Source: Spirochaetia bacterium (GTDB taxonomy: Bacteria; Spirochaetota; Spirochaetia; UBA9216). Taken from it: a stretch of 64,000 nt of DNA. Location of the stretch: NCBI GenBank assembly GCA_963675665.1, contig OY776510.1:192001-256000 (forward strand). The letters run 5' to 3'. Made by a program: the position numbers and the translations under genes. The notes under the pieces are model-generated. The model saw nothing but the letters and a program-made list of their open reading frames with translations. It searched no databases and was not told the origin of the DNA. Below are positions 49,346 through 53,890 of the stretch, piece by piece; position 1 is the first letter of the stretch; each line of letters starts with the position of its first letter.

Positions 49346-50521
49346 TTAGAGATTCCCATAATTTTTTTCTTTCTCGCCCCGGTTCTCAAGCAAAAGAAAA
49401 ACAACCACCATAAAAATAAACACGGGGGCAACAAGATATGCCGTTCTAAGCCCGAAAAGATCACCTATGACGCCCATTATAAGTATGGCAGCGCTTGTTC
49501 CGGGGATACCGAAACAGGACAGAAAAATCATAATCGCAGTTGCATCCGCATCTATCACCGAAGCAGCATAAGACTGAATACTGGGCCAGAGACATGCCAG
49601 CGTCACTCCCACAACAAAAAGATATATGTAAATCGCCGCCGGACTTTTAATCAGAAAAAAAGAAAAACTTACAAAACTGCCCGTTACAGCAGAAGTTATT
49701 AATAACCGCTTCAATCCCCACAGTTTTGCAAGCTTAACCGAAGCTATCCTGCCGACAGCCATTCCCAGCGCAAAAGCCGCTGATCCGAACGCACCGGCCC
49801 GCGGCAGCATATCAAAATGAATCTGGATATAACTGGCGCCCCAGTATGCATATGCAAATTCTCCTGCGCCTGCAAAAAACATCGCCATACCCAGCATCCA
49901 GAAACGTTTTATTTTCAAAATACCGCCCAGATGCGCAGGGTTGGAGTTTGACGGAGGAAGCTTTGCCTTTTTTACTCCCGGATAGAAACAATAAACTGCC
50001 GCCGCTGACACAGCTACTCCGACAAAAAGAACCCGCCAGGAAACACCCCGGGTCAGAAGTTCTCCGAATACTATTACGCTGAAGCAAATACCTGTCGGCC
50101 AGAACGAATGGAGCAGATTCATTTTTGAACCTCTGTCTTCAGTATGCAAATCATTTACGAGCGGTGTTATCACTGCCTCAATCATTGCGTTGCCGAAACC
50201 TGTAATAACGATCAGACTGACCGCCATAACATATGATCGGCTGACTGCAAAGGCTGCAAGCCCTGCAGCGGTAATAAGCAGGGCAGTCCTCAGCATTCTA
50301 ATCTTTCCGAAACGGGCGGCGCCGAAAATACTCAGGATAAGTATTAACAGCTGTTCAACTGAAGTAACAAACCCGAACATGCCTGCCTGGGTAAGATTGA
50401 TTGAAAATTCTTCAGAGATCTTAACCAATGCAACAGGAATTATATTAACCGACGCGGCATATATAATCATTGTAGCATAGGCACAACGGTCAATCCTTTT
50501 CCTCATTGCTTCACTAATCAT
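49346..50521 (-). CDS. MFS transporter
   Basis: About 12 TM, AARFGK motif-A-like, NLLHSFW, GDLFGLR. Confidence 0.9.
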   Translation of the reverse strand: MISEAMRKRIDRCAYATMIIYAASVNIIPVALVKISEEFSINLTQAGMFGFVTSVEQLLILILSIFGAARFGKIRMLRTALLITAAGLAAFAVSRSYVMAVSLIVITGFGNAMIEAVITPLVNDLHTEDRGSKMNLLHSFWPTGICFSVIVFGELLTRGVSWRVLFVGVAVSAAAVYCFYPGVKKAKLPPSNSNPAHLGGILKIKRFWMLGMAMFFAGAGEFAYAYWGASYIQIHFDMLPRAGAFGSAAFALGMAVGRIASVKLAKLWGLKRLLITSAVTGSFVSFSFFLIKSPAAIYIYLFVVGVTLACLWPSIQSYAASVIDADATAIMIFLSCFGIPGTSAAILIMGVIGDLFGLRTAYLVAPVFIFMVVVFLLLENRGEKEKNYGNL

Positions 50522-50589
50522 AACTGAATTATATACAGTTCCCTGAACTTTTGGTAATATATTCAGAGAAAAATAAAAAAGGACGATAA

Positions 50590-50808
50590 ATGGCGGATTT
50601 CAGCTACACAATAATCAAACACATCGGTGTAATTTCCGAATCACCAAAGGGTTGGAAAAGAGAACTTAATCTGATCTCATGGAACGAAAGAGATCCTAAA
50701 TATGACATCCGGGACTGGGCACCGGACCATGAAAAAATGGGAAAGGGTATTACGCTCAGCAGGGAAGAACTTGATAATCTTGCCGCTATCGTAACCGGGC
50801 TTGATTAA
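50590..50808 (+). CDS. YdbC/PC4-like single-stranded nucleic-acid binding protein
   Basis: GWKRELNLISWN....KYDIRDW.PDH.KMGKGITL. Confidence 0.92.
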   Translation: MADFSYTIIKHIGVISESPKGWKRELNLISWNERDPKYDIRDWAPDHEKMGKGITLSREELDNLAAIVTGLD

Positions 50809-50814
50809 GAATTA

Positions 50815-50846
50815 ATGCTGAAGAACACGATGGTCTTCGGCATTTT
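50815..50846 (+). terminator. Terminator after the ydbC-like gene
   Basis: ATGCTGAAGA...TCTTCGGCAT followed by TTT. Confidence 0.5.
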
Positions 50847-50940
50847 GAAGTTTCCGGACTTTGTTTGAAAACTTCAATTCACTAACCCCATCCATGATGG
50901 AAAATTTTAAAGGAGGAATGATAAAAAGTCTTCATGAGCT

Positions 50941-51093
50941 GGTGAATTGATATACTGCCTTAACTTTAATTGAGGCAGTAAGGTTACTGTTCGACATTTT
51001 TACTGGTCCGCGAGACCGTTTAGGAGATTGAAGAGCCGTAACCGAAACATTCAATGGTCTGCGAGACCGGATAGGAGAATGGAACAATTCACC
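50941..51093 (+). ncRNA. Putative bridge RNA of the IS110 element
   Basis: Closing stem GGTGAATTG/CAATTCACC; 5' hairpin 50953-50980; two internal-loop arms capped by near-identical TGGTC(C/T)GCGAGACCG hairpins (51004-51018, 51055-51069), with loop strands matching the target and donor junctions. Confidence 0.75.
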
Positions 51094-51128
51094 GTATAGG
51101 CACTGCTTCAAACTATTGGAGATAGAAC

Positions 51129-52241
51129 ATGAAGATGAGTATTGGCGTGGATCTTCACAAAACGCAGTTTACAGTATGCCTTTTAAGTGAAGACCGAAAA
51201 ATTGATCAATTGGGAATGTATCCGACCAGCGGAAATGGTTATGGAGCATTTCTGAAAATGCTGGATGAATATTGTGAAGAGGAATATGAGTTGAGAGCAG
51301 CGGTGGAAACAACCGGGAATGCCCGTTATTTCCGCAATAAACTGTTAAAGGCTGGAGTCGAAGTGGTTGTAGTGAATACTTTGAAATTCAAGGTAGTGAA
51401 TGAATCTGTAAAAAAGACAGACAAACATGATGCACGCACCCTGGCGGAGTTTCTTGAGAAAGACATGCTGCCTGAATCGATATTATGTTCCCAAGAGAGT
51501 GAGGATATTCGAAGGGTGCTGAAATCCAGGTCGATACTGGTAAAATCTGTTGTGTCGTTAAAGAACCAGGTGCATGGCTTATTACTTGGTTATGGAATAG
51601 AGACCAAACGCGGACAGCTGCAGAGTAAAAAAGAAAGGCAGCGAATCCTGAACGGTCTCGAGGACCACGACTTTTACGGAAGCGCTGCCAAAACGGTAAT
51701 ACCGTTACTGGATATGATAGATAATCAGGCATCGCAAGTCAAGCAGCTTGAAAAGGTTTTGGCTGAGCTTGTGGAGGACGATGAAGATGTTGAGCTTCTG
51801 CAGACAATACCAGGCGTGGGTCTAATAACAGCAGCAACAGTAAGAGCCTATACAGACGATATCGGCAGATATGATAGTGCGAAGAAATATGCAGCAAACG
51901 CCGGGCTTGTGCCATGGGTGCAGAACTCAAATATGACAATACATCATGGACATATAACAAAGCGTGGGCCTGTAGAACTGAGGACAGCCTTCGTACAGAT
52001 GGTGATGGGAATGGTTCGTATGCAAAAGAAGACCGGGACGTACCGAATAATGACGAAGTATGCAGCGATGAAGAAGCAGAAAGGCTCGGGTAAGAGTGTA
52101 ATAGCTGCCGCCCGCAAGATGAGCACTTTGGTATATACAATTTTAAAAACCAGAGAGCCGTTTGATCCGATGAAAATGGCTTTTAGAAAAGAATACAGGG
52201 AAATGCAGGCAGCAGCATGGGAAGCTGTAATGGTCGGTTGA
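51129..52241 (+). CDS. IS110 family transposase/recombinase (DEDD RuvC-like + Tnp domain)
   Basis: IGVDLHK, VETTG, KTDKHDA, LQTIPGVG, AGLVP...NS (catalytic Ser position), ITKRG...LR, AAARK. Confidence 0.95.
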   Translation: MKMSIGVDLHKTQFTVCLLSEDRKIDQLGMYPTSGNGYGAFLKMLDEYCEEEYELRAAVETTGNARYFRNKLLKAGVEVVVVNTLKFKVVNESVKKTDKHDARTLAEFLEKDMLPESILCSQESEDIRRVLKSRSILVKSVVSLKNQVHGLLLGYGIETKRGQLQSKKERQRILNGLEDHDFYGSAAKTVIPLLDMIDNQASQVKQLEKVLAELVEDDEDVELLQTIPGVGLITAATVRAYTDDIGRYDSAKKYAANAGLVPWVQNSNMTIHHGHITKRGPVELRTAFVQMVMGMVRMQKKTGTYRIMTKYAAMKKQKGSGKSVIAAARKMSTLVYTILKTREPFDPMKMAFRKEYREMQAAAWEAVMVG

Positions 52242-52303
52242 TATCCGACCAGATCATAAGCTTATATTTTTAGCTTGTGGTTGACTTTTTATAGGAGATA
52301 ATA

Positions 52304-53890
52304 ATGTCGGAAATAAAATATCAGAACATAGACAAAACAAAGGCCTTCAGCAAACTGGCTGCAATGAAAAAAATATCACTGAAAGAGCTGATATCTTCAG
52401 CCCGCATAGCTGAGTATTCAATAAACGCCGGCGGAGGGTTAACATATAACTATTCAGCCAAAGCCGTGAACGGGGAAATTATTGATACCCTTGCCGAACT
52501 CAGCCTTGAACAGGAACTGGTTCAGAAATATATGGAGATTCTTTCCGGCACCCGAATGAATACCGGGGAAAACAGAATGGTGCTTCACCAGCTGACACGC
52601 GGTCAAACCGTCTCAAAAGTCACAGAGAACGGCAGAGACCTGGGCGCGTTTTACGCCGAACAGAAGCAGAGGATAGCCGATTTTGCAAACAAGGTGCATA
52701 ACGGCGAAATACTCGGATCTACGGGCAAAAAGTTCGACACGGTAGTACAGATTGGAATAGGCGGTTCGGACCTGGGCCCCAGGGCCCTTTACCTGGCGCT
52801 TGAAGGCTGGGCGGAAGTAAACAATAAATCAATGATGGATGCGCTCTTCATATCAAATGTCGACCCTGATGATGCAACAGCCGTTGCGGCCTCCATTGAT
52901 CCTGAAACAACCCTTTTTATACTTGTATCAAAAAGCGGAACAACCCAGGAAACCCTGACAAACCAGGCATTTGTTCTTGATATCGTCGGGAAAACCGGGC
53001 CGGAAAAGCTTGTGCCTGCAAAACACATGATTGCCGTAACAAGCCAGAGCAGCCCCCTGGCGGAATCCGGAGCCTTCCTTGACAGCTTCTATATTGACGA
53101 TTACATAGGCGGCCGGTATTCTTCAACCAGCGCTGTCGGAGGGGCTGTGCTCAGTCTAGCTTTCGGCCCGGACGTATTTGATTCATTTCTTGCCGGCGCC
53201 CATGATGCGGATGTAAGGGCCCTTGAAGCGGATATCAGGTTAAACGCGGCCCTGATGGATGCAATGACAGGCGTATACGAGCGCAACATTCTCGGTTACC
53301 CGTCTACGGCCGTTCTGCCTTACAGCCAGAGCCTTTCGCGATTTCCGGCGCACCTGCAACAGCTTGATATGGAAAGCAACGGAAAAAGCGTCAACCGATT
53401 CGGCGAACCTGTTGAATACAGTACCGGGCCCGTAATATTCGGTGAACCGGGAACCAACGGGCAGCATTCATTCTATCAGCTGCTTCACCAGGGCACTGAT
53501 ATTGTTCCGCTTCAGTTTATAGGTTTTAAAAGTTCTCAACGCGGTTACGATCTTGAAATCGAAGGCTCAAACAGCCAGACAAAACTGAATGCCAACCTCG
53601 CCGCCCAGATAACGGCCTTTATGCTCGGGCAGGACGACGACAATCCGAACAGGCAATTTAACGGTGGGCGCCCGTCCAGCCTTATTTACGGCTCCGATCT
53701 GAACCCGGAAGCCCTCGGCGCTCTTCTTGCACATTTTGAAAACAAGGTAATGTTCCAGGGACTTGCCTGGAATATAAACTCGTTCGATCAGGAAGGTGTC
53801 CAGCTGGGCAAACTGCTGACCAAAAAACTGCTCGGAGGCGGAGGCGCTTCAGAAACGCTTCAGGCATATTTCAACCTGCTTCAGGAGTAA
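52304..53890 (+). CDS. pgi: Glucose-6-phosphate isomerase
   Basis: IGIGGSDLGP, SKSGTTQET, IGGRYS, QQLDMESNGK, GTNGQHSFYQLLHQG, FDQEGVQLGK. Confidence 0.98.
   Translation: MSEIKYQNIDKTKAFSKLAAMKKISLKELISSARIAEYSINAGGGLTYNYSAKAVNGEIIDTLAELSLEQELVQKYMEILSGTRMNTGENRMVLHQLTRGQTVSKVTENGRDLGAFYAEQKQRIADFANKVHNGEILGSTGKKFDTVVQIGIGGSDLGPRALYLALEGWAEVNNKSMMDALFISNVDPDDATAVAASIDPETTLFILVSKSGTTQETLTNQAFVLDIVGKTGPEKLVPAKHMIAVTSQSSPLAESGAFLDSFYIDDYIGGRYSSTSAVGGAVLSLAFGPDVFDSFLAGAHDADVRALEADIRLNAALMDAMTGVYERNILGYPSTAVLPYSQSLSRFPAHLQQLDMESNGKSVNRFGEPVEYSTGPVIFGEPGTNGQHSFYQLLHQGTDIVPLQFIGFKSSQRGYDLEIEGSNSQTKLNANLAAQITAFMLGQDDDNPNRQFNGGRPSSLIYGSDLNPEALGALLAHFENKVMFQGLAWNINSFDQEGVQLGKLLTKKLLGGGGASETLQAYFNLLQE

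What the first reader, a model, noticed from the sequence alone, without database searches (positions are those of the whole stretch)
50941..51093. Bridge-RNA architecture with duplicated arm hairpins and donor-matching guides
Seen: a perfect 9-bp closing stem, a 5' hairpin (TACTGCCTTAA/TTGAGGCAGTA), a GGTTAC/GTAACC arm, and two near-identical 24-nt units TGGTC(C/T)GCGAGACCG(TT/GA)TAGGAGA. The second loop carries CATTC (51048-51052) and ATAGGAG (51071-51077), which match the predicted circle junction TTTTATAGGAG|GAATG, read on the bottom strand as CATTC-CT-CCTAT. Inference: these are the target- and donor-binding loops, possibly arisen by internal duplication. Both read the strand opposite to the IS621 convention, with a CT core on the bottom strand.
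Basis: partly seen in the sequence, partly recalled or inferred. Interest (0 to 1): 0.75.

Follow-up and report, generated by a model that had tools for sequence, protein, structure and literature searches.

The report
Mirror-polarity bridge RNA targeting ribosome-binding sites
This stretch encodes the guide ("bridge") RNA of a jumping gene of the IS110 family that reads ribosome-binding sites and start codons as its landing pads, a known kind of system in an unusual arrangement.

Summary
Window 50941-51093 is the structured 5' non-coding RNA of a 1382-bp IS110-family insertion sequence (50916-52297; recombinase 51129-52241), present in 15 near-identical copies in this genome.

Across about 100 relatives the fold is kept by compensatory changes. 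Both loops also covary with DNA:
- Loop 2, 5' strand (CAUUC) pairs with the first five bases of the left end, with six different perfectly complementary combinations.
- Loop 2, 3' strand (AUAGGAG) equals the invariant right end.
- Loop 1, 3' strand (NNAGGAG) tracks the left flank, a Shine-Dalgarno box.
- Loop 1, 5' strand (CAU-N6) tracks, more weakly, the start codon and the bases before it.

So loop 1 is the target loop and loop 2 the donor loop, as in IS621. This order is already described for IS1111-type seekRNAs. The element also has a 10-bp subterminal inverted repeat (IS1111-like), yet its RNA lies in the left end (IS110-like).

All 15 copies sit between a gene's Shine-Dalgarno box and its ATG, co-directional with the gene, and the right end supplies a replacement box.

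Not shown: a transcript, the excised circle, or the exact core. Origin by internal duplication is untested. Verdict: new variant of a known kind.

The parts
50909..50915 (+). Left target half: the Shine-Dalgarno box of pgi that the insertion displaced (AAAGGAG, positions -7..-1)
   Evidence: All 15 own copies have a left flank ending AGGAG. Relatives G003 and G004 have the PC4-like gene followed directly by a Shine-Dalgarno box and pgi, with no element.
50916..52297 (+). The whole IS110-family insertion sequence, 1382 bp
   Evidence: 15 copies at 99-100% identity, with one variable base at 52250. Contigs of public runs break at 50911 and 52297, and depth inside is about 14 times that of the flanks.
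50916..50920 (+). Right donor half (GAATG), read by the 5' strand of loop 2
   Evidence: Covaries with the loop-2 5-mer in 113 loci.
50921..50930 (+). Left subterminal inverted repeat ATAAAAAGTC; it holds the -10 element TAAAAA (50922-50927), preceded by TG
   Evidence: 10-nt arm, 100% complementary to 52283-52292 (I11). In L075/L080 both arms change together. Junction promoter scan.
50941..51093 (+). Bridge RNA core, from the 5' strand to the 3' strand of closing stem P1
   Evidence: The covariance model finds it upstream of the recombinase gene in relatives (98 matches in 100 sources). 90.2% of cells are paired against 79.0% when shuffled; 33 of 44 pairs show compensatory change.
50953..50980 (+). 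5' stem-loop (P2)
   Evidence: 10 of 11 pairs show changes on both sides; 81.9% of cells are paired (helix 3).
50995..51004 (+). Loop 1 (target loop), 5' strand CAUUUUUACU: antisense to the spacer and start codon of the target gene
   Evidence: Anchored on the ATG, 244 of 516 cells match against 181.1 +/- 16.8 in permutations (0 of 10000). In the own genome, occupied sites are richer in A before the ATG, 0.65 against 0.45 (160 of 20000 random subsets reach it).
51004..51018 (+). Distal hairpin of loop 1 (U-GGUC-CGCGA-GACC-G)
   Evidence: 99.8% of cells are paired; 4 of 5 pairs show compensatory change (helix 5).
51020..51026 (+). Loop 1, 3' strand UUAGGAG: same sense as the left target half, so it would pair the bottom strand. 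Followed by AUUG at 51027-51030.
   Evidence: Flank positions -7 and -6 follow the guide in 79 of 96 and 89 of 96 flanks (0 of 10000 permutations each).
51048..51052 (+). Loop 2 (donor loop), 5' strand CAUUC: antisense to left-end bases +1..+5
51055..51069 (+). Distal hairpin of loop 2 (U-GGUC-UGCGA-GACC-G)
   Evidence: 99.8% of cells are paired; two pairs switch GC/AU and UA/CG in about half of the sequences (helix 7).
51071..51077 (+). Loop 2, 3' strand AUAGGAG: same sense as the last 7 bases of the right end. Followed by AAUG at 51078-51081.
   Evidence: Both the guide and the right end are invariant in all parsed relatives. This is identity only; no covariation is possible.
51103..51110 (+). 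Alternative pairing partner of the 3' arm of the 5' stem-loop (50971-50978)
   Evidence: 87.0% of cells are paired against 71.0% when shuffled; slid controls give 37-49%. RNAalifold also predicts it.
51129..52241 (+). Recombinase gene, 370 aa (DEDD RuvC-like domain plus Tnp domain)
   Evidence: PF01548 E 9.3e-18 and PF02371 E 1.4e-17. IS621 (8wt6) E 5.6e-15 and ISCro4 (9t56) E 7.2e-16.
51637..51689 (+). Conserved stem / internal loop / hairpin inside the recombinase gene; role unexplained
   Evidence: (I1, I3).
52281..52297 (+). Right end: -35 element TTGACT (52281-52286), right subterminal inverted repeat (52283-52292), and left donor half ATAGGAG (52291-52297), which doubles as the replacement Shine-Dalgarno box
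52298..52306 (+). Right target half: the 6-nt spacer and the ATG of pgi
   Evidence: The window's own site matches the sequence predicted from the loop-1 5' strand at 7 of 9 positions (read). pgi is PF00342, E 2.4e-120.

Best explanation
The region is the bridge RNA of an IS110-family insertion sequence.

Proposed mechanism. Steps 3 and 4 are shown by covariation; the rest is inferred from sequence and from IS621, ISEc11 and ISEc21.

1. Excision joins the right end to the left end. This builds the donor site (...ATAGGAG next to GAATG...), flanked by 10-bp inverted repeats. It also assembles a promoter: -35 TTGACT in the right end, a 17-bp spacer, and TG-n-TAAAAA in the left end. Transcription would start a few bases before the closing stem.
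2. The RNA folds into a closing stem, a 5' stem-loop and two loop modules. The two modules have near-identical distal hairpins, presumably one recombinase dimer on each.
3. Donor loop (loop 2): the 3' strand AUAGGAG pairs the bottom strand of the right end. The 5' strand CAUUC pairs the top strand of the left end.
4. Target loop (loop 1): the 3' strand NNAGGAG pairs the bottom strand of a Shine-Dalgarno box. The 5' strand CAU-N6 pairs the top strand at the start codon and the 3-4 bases before it.
5. Strands are exchanged within or at the end of AGGAG; the likely core is AG on the top strand, CT on the bottom.
6. The element lands between the box and the ATG, co-directional with the gene. The right end puts an identical box back at the same spacing.

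Seen from the recombinase gene, the polarity of all four guides is the mirror image of IS621.
For: Identity and copy number: recombinase domains; 15 copies with identical ends.

Structure: on 98 sequences (92 distinct), 90.2% of cells are paired against 79.0% when shuffled. 33 of 44 pairs show compensatory change against 22.0 +/- 1.6 (0 of 500 shuffles). Slid controls give 23.5-45.0% paired. Invariant U-G closing pairs and frequent G-U pairs fit an RNA of the + strand.

Donor loop: six perfectly complementary left-end/guide types, namely GAATG/CAUUC in 89 loci, GTATG/CAUAC 5, GAACG/CGUUC 4, GCACG/CGUGC 3, GCATG/CAUGC 2 and GAGTG/CACUC 1. Among the other five combinations, two pair by G-U wobble without a mismatch; each of the remaining three has one mismatched cell.

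Target loop, 3' strand: 290 of 384 cells match against 196.1 +/- 15.9 in permutations (0 of 10000); the signal lies at -7 and -6.

Target loop, 5' strand: ATG-anchored, 244 of 516 against 181.1 +/- 16.8 (0 of 10000).

Own genome: only 827 of 6564 NNAGGAG sites have an ATG at +6..+8, yet 15 of 15 insertions do. Among the 128 NTAGGAG sites with such an ATG, the 13 occupied ones have more A before the ATG.

Junction promoter: TTGACT-17-TAAAAA with TG. No + strand promoter is found in the integrated left end.

Empty synteny in relatives.

Precedents read in papers: PMC11208160 (passages), PMC11208158 (passages), PMC11187229 (sections 6, 9, 12).
Against: - Neither a transcript nor the excised circle was seen, so steps 1 and 2 rest on sequence and analogy alone.
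- The register of the loop-1 5' strand is unresolved. Core-anchored registers -1 and 0 and the ATG-anchored register all score above permutations, and only about half of the N6 cells match.
- Eleven of the 15 own insertions mismatch the loop-1 3' guide at -7: ten have A there and one has C, where the guide has U. Two of these ten also mismatch at -6.
- The two bases of the loop-2 5' strand that lie opposite the core are variable and not complementary (AA, GA, AC, UG, CA). In IS621 all four guides include the core.
- AUAGGAG and the right end never vary, so that pairing rests on identity alone.
- The alignment was fitted to the structure by the model.
- The permutations treat guide families as independent although they are related.
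- Selection against insertions inside genes could by itself enrich sites that are followed by an ATG.
Confidence: 0.88

Rival explanations
1. The structure is only a 5' leader that controls translation or stability of the recombinase mRNA. On this view the matches to the element ends and to Shine-Dalgarno boxes are incidental, for example exposed AGGAG boxes that bind ribosomes.
For: Two mutually exclusive helices are conserved: the 5' stem-loop, and a pairing of its 3' arm with 51103-51110, just before the recombinase's own ribosome-binding site. That looks like a switch. No transcript ends are known.
Against: A leader has no reason to covary with DNA outside the transcript. The left flank lies outside the element, yet it follows the loop-1 guide. 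Left-end bases upstream of the predicted transcription start follow the loop-2 guide.
Confidence: 0.04
2. The repeated AGGAG-bearing units act as DNA, as internal recombinase-binding repeats that resemble the ends, and not as RNA guides.
For: The loop strands are literal copies (3' strands) or inverted copies (5' strands) of end and target sequences. A third such unit lies in the recombinase gene. The element also has protein-type subterminal inverted repeats.
Against: The stems around the units keep their pairing through compensatory changes and G-U pairs, which are strand-specific. Guide/left-end combinations tolerate G-U but rarely other mismatches. The homologous recombinases IS621, ISEc11 and ISEc21 are shown to use such RNAs.
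Confidence: 0.05
3. It is a bridge RNA, but loop 1 mainly reads the element's own right junction (right end plus flank) for excision or copy-out. Naive targets would be hit only because they resemble that junction.
For: The left target half and the left donor half are nearly the same (NNAGGAG and ATAGGAG). Nine of the 15 own left flanks read ATAGGAG, like the right end, while the loop-1 guide reads UUAGGAG. A right junction is itself a valid target: copy L006 sits directly behind a miniature element.
Against: In other families the left flank follows the loop-1 guide and not the invariant right end, for example ACAGGAG in Oceanispirochaeta and AAAGGAG in Syntrophales. Occupancy of TTAGGAG and ATAGGAG sites is similar, roughly 4 of 40 and 9 of 70 (my tally). 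Six of the flanks are ends of a repeated host or miniature element.
Confidence: 0.03

Closest known systems
IS621 bridge RNA (IS110 group; Durrant 2024 PMC11208160, Hiraizumi 2024 PMC11208158)
   Same: - The non-coding RNA is encoded in a long left end, upstream of a DEDD/Tnp recombinase.
- The order is 5' stem-loop, then target loop, then donor loop.
- Each loop has two guide strands around a distal hairpin, and the two strands pair opposite DNA strands on either side of a short core.
- Both 3' strands end in AG followed by two to four further bases, where IS621 has its handshake guides.
- A promoter is split between the right and the left end.
   Different: - Guide polarity is mirrored with respect to the recombinase gene.
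- The subterminal inverted repeat is 10 bp, against 2-3 bp.
- One closing stem joins the RNA's 5' end to the 3' side of the donor loop.
- The donor 5' strand does not cover the core.
- The two bases after AG show no handshake logic that I could recognise.
- The protein is distant (E 5.6e-15, mainly the C-terminal domain).
- The target is a generic functional motif and not a REP-type site.
IS1111-type seekRNAs (ISEc11, ISPa11, ISKpn4; Siddiquee 2024 PMC11187229)
   Same: The segment complementary to the top strand lies 5' of the segment complementary to the bottom strand. The subterminal inverted repeats are of IS1111 length. A circle-junction promoter is present.
   Different: There the non-coding region lies downstream of the gene; a few exceptions such as ISMtsp17 are named but not dissected. 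Those transposases are 330-350 aa, against 370 aa here. Identity to IS4321, IS5075 and ISEc11 is only 23-27% over 63-70% of the protein.
IS900 of Mycobacterium avium subsp. paratuberculosis (IS110 family)
   Same: It targets a ribosome-binding site plus start codon. The published motif CATGNNNNNNTCTCCTT (PMC8141618, passage) is the reverse complement of a Shine-Dalgarno box, 6 nt and ATG.
   Different: There the target gene's signals face the strand opposite to the transposase and can drive the hed frame. I infer this from the same passages and from recall. Here the recombinase is co-directional with the target gene and the right end restores the box. I did not examine an IS900 bridge RNA.

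Membership tests
IS110 family (DEDD recombinase insertion sequences, broad sense) | N-terminal DEDD RuvC-like domain plus C-terminal Tnp domain | tested here: met
   PF01548 (residues 5-155) and PF02371 (residues 222-303), both above their cut-offs.
IS110 family (DEDD recombinase insertion sequences, broad sense) | Catalytic residues: D, E, D, D and the serine of the G-x-x-P-x4-S motif | tested here: met
   D8, E60, D98, D101 and S267 are invariant in 27 relatives. The stretches around D98/D101 and S267 align with the IS621 stretches that hold D102/D105 and S241 (residue numbers from PMC11208158).
IS110 family (DEDD recombinase insertion sequences, broad sense) | Site- and orientation-specific insertion without terminal inverted repeats at the very tips | tested here: met
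   15 of 15 insertions follow AGGAG and precede spacer plus ATG, all co-directional with the gene. The only repeated bases are those shared by the left target half and the right end.
Bridge RNA / seekRNA | Conserved structured RNA in the long non-coding end next to the recombinase gene | tested here: met
Bridge RNA / seekRNA | One loop covaries with the target flanks | tested here: met
   strong for the 3' strand, moderate for the 5' strand.
Bridge RNA / seekRNA | The other loop is complementary to the donor (joined ends) | tested here: met
   One search gives covariation for the 5' strand. Searches give identity only for the 3' strand.
Bridge RNA / seekRNA | The RNA is transcribed and bound by the recombinase | not testable with these tools
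   No RNA run is listed among the holders. Only contigs could be laid.
IS621-type (IS110 group) bridge RNA | [quoted passage not shown] | tested here: not met
   It is the reverse here.
IS621-type (IS110 group) bridge RNA | [quoted passage not shown] | tested here: inconclusive
   Both 3' strands end in AG. The loop-1 5' strand ends in CU in this element but in AU, UU or GU in many relatives. The loop-2 5' strand has non-complementary, variable bases opposite the core.
IS621-type (IS110 group) bridge RNA | RNA in a long left end, short right end | tested here: met
   The left end is 213 nt up to the ATG; the right end is 56 nt.
IS1111 group | Subterminal inverted repeats of 7-17 bp | tested here: met
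   10 bp at 100%, five bases in from each tip (I11). The arms change together in L075/L080.
IS1111 group | Long non-coding region and RNA downstream of the transposase gene | tested here: not met
   The RNA lies upstream.
IS1111 group | The top-strand match lies 5' of the bottom-strand match in the RNA | tested here: met
   against PMC11187229.
IS1111 group | Transposase related over its full length to that of IS1111; 330-350 aa | tested here: inconclusive
   The protein is 370 aa. tblastn to IS4321, IS5075 and ISEc11 gives 23-27% identity over 63-70% of it. No tree with ISfinder references was made.
Any Rfam 15 family | A match to a curated covariance model | tested here: not met
   Only two chance-level matches, both with E above 8, to snoRNA families in 50000-53000.

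The most novel reading that the evidence does not exclude
This lineage could be an intermediate or third arrangement between the IS110 and IS1111 groups. It has IS1111-type guide order and long subterminal inverted repeats, but its bridge RNA is still in the left end. Durrant et al. postulated such a form when they proposed that the RNA moved between the ends.

Its target loop is tuned to a generic functional signal, a Shine-Dalgarno box plus start codon, and not to one locus. It can therefore enter many genes' translation start regions, hand back a ribosome-binding site, and mobilise miniature derivatives.

A third loop-like module inside the recombinase gene tracks the target guide. It may be a further, undescribed regulatory or guide component.
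Probability: 0.3. Interest if true: 0.7.

Novelty: new variant of a known kind. Interest (0 to 1): 0.5.

Why it matters
Bridge RNAs are of strong current interest as programmable recombination guides. This family gives a natural, well-sampled example: 15 copies in one genome and about 100 relatives with flanks.

- The guide polarity is inverted relative to the recombinase gene, while the RNA stays in the left end.
- The guides are short: 7 nt, plus roughly 7 nt.
- The target is a functional motif present at hundreds of sites per genome.

The family could therefore inform how guide order, subterminal repeats and RNA position evolved between the IS110 and IS1111 groups, and how specificity can be relaxed. 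The replacement of the ribosome-binding site suggests a way for an insertion sequence to lower the cost of landing in front of genes.

The general mechanism, the reversed guide order (IS1111 seekRNAs) and ribosome-binding-site targeting (IS900) are each already in print, and large surveys of bridge RNA variants exist (bioRxiv 10.64898/2026.10.21.760802, passages). The step beyond what is known is therefore moderate.

Tried and rejected
- Rfam scan at E up to 10: nothing relevant.
- Sequencing runs: no RNA holder is listed. Contigs of four runs of one study were laid. They show the copy-number excess and the contig breaks at the ends, but they cannot show a transcript or a circle. One contig-level joint, 50948 to 52278 with 6 other letters between, had only 20 letters on its shorter side and was laid at 90% likeness. 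That is below the tool's own caution line. I found no such form in the assembled genome and do not interpret it.
- An exact empty site in the same species was not found. Relatives at about 71-78% identity show only conserved gene order without the element.
- Handshake-guide logic as in IS621: the bases after AG are A-N-U-G in both loops. I found no covariation with the other partner's bases by eye, so it is left open.
- Fixing the register of the loop-1 5' strand relative to the core: registers -1, 0 and ATG-anchored all score, so it is not resolved.
- The first count of background sites used an element cut one base off. It serves for background only; one search repeats it with the correct ends.
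- Subgroup placement by similarity: the protein is about equally far from IS621 and ISCro4 and from IS4321, IS5075 and ISEc11. No tree was made because IS110-group reference sequences were not at hand.
- The covariance model finds no match in 13 of 14 loci of distant relatives (32-37% identity; Lentisphaeria, Victivallales, Clostridia). Only L096 matches. Whether those relatives have a different RNA was not examined.
- Papers: searches for bridge RNA together with Shine-Dalgarno, ribosome binding site or IS900 listed no paper that describes a bridge RNA reading ribosome-binding sites. One search listed only 15 of 1086 hits, so this is not proof of absence. Supplements of the papers were not read.

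Full report
**What is there.** The finding lies in the 213-nt non-coding left end of an insertion sequence. The 370-aa frame at 51129-52241 carries the two domains of IS110-family recombinases (PF01548, E 9.3e-18; PF02371, E 1.4e-17). It matches the solved IS621 and ISCro4 proteins only distantly (E 5.6e-15 and 7.2e-16, mainly in the C-terminal domain). Upstream lie an MFS transporter gene and a small PC4-like gene; downstream lies pgi.

The own genome holds 15 copies at 99-100% identity. Aligning their ends gives an element of 1382 bp, window 50916-52297. It begins GAATGATAAAAAGTC and ends GACTTTTTATAGGAG. One base, at 52250, varies among the copies. Contigs of public runs of the same organism break at 50911 and 52297 and are about 14 times deeper inside than outside.

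**The observation.** The stretch folds far better than shuffles (z -3.73). No Rfam family matches.

**Relatives.** The recombinase has thousands of relatives: 2735 with E up to 0.001 among the 8000 candidates scored. I fetched 80 loci from species genomes (Spirochaetota, Syntrophales, Desulfobacterales and others by record title, several with 9-12 copies) and 80 from metagenome contigs. A pattern for the RNA's landmarks parsed 116 of the 158 loci examined. Three were then dropped because the left end was mis-assigned (L047, L062, L109), leaving 113.

**Structure.** RNAalifold on 64 distinct left ends predicts the loop-1 arm and both distal hairpins, with 18 of 30 pairs showing compensatory change. 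I built a covariance model from 22 sequences with a structure I wrote by hand from the window's fold. It found 98 matches in 100 sources.

In a second set of 29 sources, 14 of 15 further metagenome loci matched. L168 lacks upstream DNA. Only 1 of 14 loci whose proteins are 32-37% identical matched.

On the model's alignment, 90.2% of cells pair, against 79.0% in shuffles. 33 of 44 pairs show changes on both sides, against 22.0 +/- 1.6 (0 of 500). Slid controls give 23.5-45.0%. All nine pairs of the closing stem, 10 of 11 of the 5' stem-loop and 4 of 5 of each distal hairpin show compensatory change. The alignment was fitted to the structure, which favours it. The invariant U-G closing pairs and the many G-U pairs fit an RNA read from the + strand.

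**Donor loop.** The 5-mer on the 5' side of loop 2 is the reverse complement of left-end bases +1..+5 in six different forms: GAATG/CAUUC in 89 loci, GTATG/CAUAC 5, GAACG/CGUUC 4, GCACG/CGUGC 3, GCATG/CAUGC 2 and GAGTG/CACUC 1. Of the other five combinations, two pair by G-U wobble alone; each of the other three has one mismatched cell. In all there are 48 Watson-Crick, 4 G-U and 3 mismatched cells over 11 combinations. The 3' side, AUAGGAG, equals the last seven bases of the right end. Both are invariant in every parsed relative, so that half rests on identity only.

**Target loop.** The 3' side of loop 1 reads N-N-A-G-G-A-G. Among 96 distinct left flanks and 22 guide variants, the flank equals the guide at -7 in 79 and at -6 in 89, against 30.6 +/- 10.7 and 46.7 +/- 10.7 when guides are permuted among families (0 of 10000 each). 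Position -8 shows nothing, and -5 to -1 are nearly invariant AGGAG. Examples: guide UACAGGAG with flanks ACAGGAG in Oceanispirochaeta; CAAAGGAG with AAAGGAG in Syntrophales; NNGAGGAG with AGAGGAG.

The 5' side of loop 1 reads CG-N-CAU-N6-U in all relatives. Among 95 distinct right flanks the first ATG lies at +7 in 47, at +6 in 15 and at +8 in 13. With the guide's CAU laid on that ATG, the six bases before it match the guide's complement in 244 of 516 cells, against 181.1 +/- 16.8 (0 of 10000). The signal is strongest in the three bases next to the ATG. Registers fixed to the core, at -1 and 0, also exceed permutations (5 and 18 of 10000), so the exact register is open.

In the own genome only 827 of 6564 NNAGGAG sites are followed by an ATG at +6..+8, yet all 15 insertions are. 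Among the 128 NTAGGAG sites with such an ATG, the 13 occupied ones have 65% A in the four bases before the ATG, against 45% in the rest (160 of 20000 random subsets reach this). That fits the guide's run of U. Selection against insertions inside genes may contribute to the ATG association.

[quoted passage not shown] The core is in all four pairings and two handshake bases follow the core complement (PMC11208160 and PMC11208158, passages).

Here, taking the recombinase's sense strand as top, the 5' sides are antisense to the right halves and the 3' sides are sense copies of the left halves. Read on the other strand, the site fits the IS621 scheme with a CT core. The crossover must lie within AGGAG, because flanks that differ from the right end at -6 or -7 keep their own bases, and both 3' strands end in AG.

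The same reversed order is reported for IS1111-type seekRNAs, in contrast to the IS110-type ISEc21 (PMC11187229, sections 9 and 12).

**A mixed set of subgroup traits.** The element has a perfect 10-bp subterminal inverted repeat (50921-50930 with 52283-52292). Its arms change together in L075/L080. IS1111 elements are defined by such repeats of 7-17 bp and carry their RNA in the right end. IS110-group elements have 2-3-bp repeats and carry the RNA in the left end (PMC11208160, passage; PMC11187229, section 6).

This family thus mixes traits: RNA in the left end and a 370-aa protein on one side, long repeats and IS1111 guide order on the other. A few IS1111 members with an upstream non-coding region (ISMtsp17) are mentioned in that paper but not analysed there. 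By similarity the protein is about equally far from both groups.

**Promoter.** Joining the right end to the left end gives TTGACT, 17 bp, TAAAAA, with TG before the second hexamer. The integrated copy has no + strand promoter-like site in the left end. These bases are invariant across the family. A circle-junction promoter is known for ISEc11, ISEc21 and IS621.

**Consequences of the target choice.** All 15 copies lie between a gene's Shine-Dalgarno box and its ATG, co-directional with the gene. The right end ends in TATAGGAG, so a box returns at the same spacing. In relatives G003 and G004 the PC4-like gene is followed directly by a box and pgi. IS900, another IS110-family member, has the target motif CATGNNNNNNTCTCCTT (PMC8141618, passage). 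That is the same kind of site read on the other strand.

**Internal duplication.** The two loop modules share one template: CG, guide, U, hairpin with a YNCGA loop, G, NN-AGGAG, A-N-U-G. They are 77% identical here. Their hairpin stems vary independently among relatives. The likeness of the 3' strands follows from the left target half and the left donor half both being AGGAG boxes. A duplication origin is plausible, but nothing here tests it.

**Weak points.** These are listed in full in the Against line. The main ones are the absence of a transcript or circle, the unresolved 5' register, the -7 mismatch in 11 of 15 own flanks, the uncovered core in the donor 5' strand, and the dependence among related sequences in all the permutation tests.

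Noticed in passing
G000:C1 near 2291906, 2400715, 3764698, 4147129 (+) and 368635 (coordinate on the reverse-complement strand as printed by the script); window 50836-50915 holds a degenerate 3' part: Miniature elements of about 110-125 bp. Each starts with the element's left end, which is followed after a short loop by the inverted repeat, so that the two form a hairpin. Two more hairpins follow, and the element ends in TTATAGGAG-like bases. They sit in Shine-Dalgarno sites like the full element, and copy L006 lies directly behind one. Six of the 15 full copies have left flanks that look like the 3' part of this repeat. These are probably non-autonomous derivatives mobilised in trans.
   Followed up: partly
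window 51637-51689 (hairpin 51654-51666): A stem / internal loop / hairpin lies inside the recombinase gene. A 4-bp-stem TCGNN hairpin occurs here in 62 of 63 representatives, against 0, 1, 2, 12 and 0 of 63 in five other windows of the gene. There are seven stem variants and the amino acids change with them. Its reverse complement fits the bridge RNA's distal-hairpin consensus. Bases 51646-51667 are 91% complementary to the loop-1 hairpin plus 3' guide (I1). The three variable guide bases are complementary to the codon before the hairpin in 34 of 69 cells, against 22.7 +/- 3.4 in permutations (14 of 10000; kinship not controlled). Unexplained.
   Followed up: partly
window 50971-50978 with 51103-51110: The 3' arm of the 5' stem-loop can instead pair with a segment just upstream of the recombinase's ribosome-binding site. 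87.0% of cells are paired, against 71.0% when shuffled and 37-49% when slid; RNAalifold predicts it too. It may be a switch between two RNA states.
   Followed up: partly
G000:C1, e.g. 2622140-2622580 (-), 554677-555117 (-), 4457488-4457928 (-): A second, different IS110-family element is present in eight matching places, seven with an open frame of about 387 aa and one of 346 aa. One of them lies about 200 bp from copy L007 of the element studied.
   Followed up: no
L193 (Thiospirochaeta perfilievii plasmid pSpe, NZ_CP035808.1 31074-32186): A relative at 76.6% protein identity lies on a named 32.8-kb plasmid. It is annotated only as 'IS110 family transposase', with no RNA feature.
   Followed up: no
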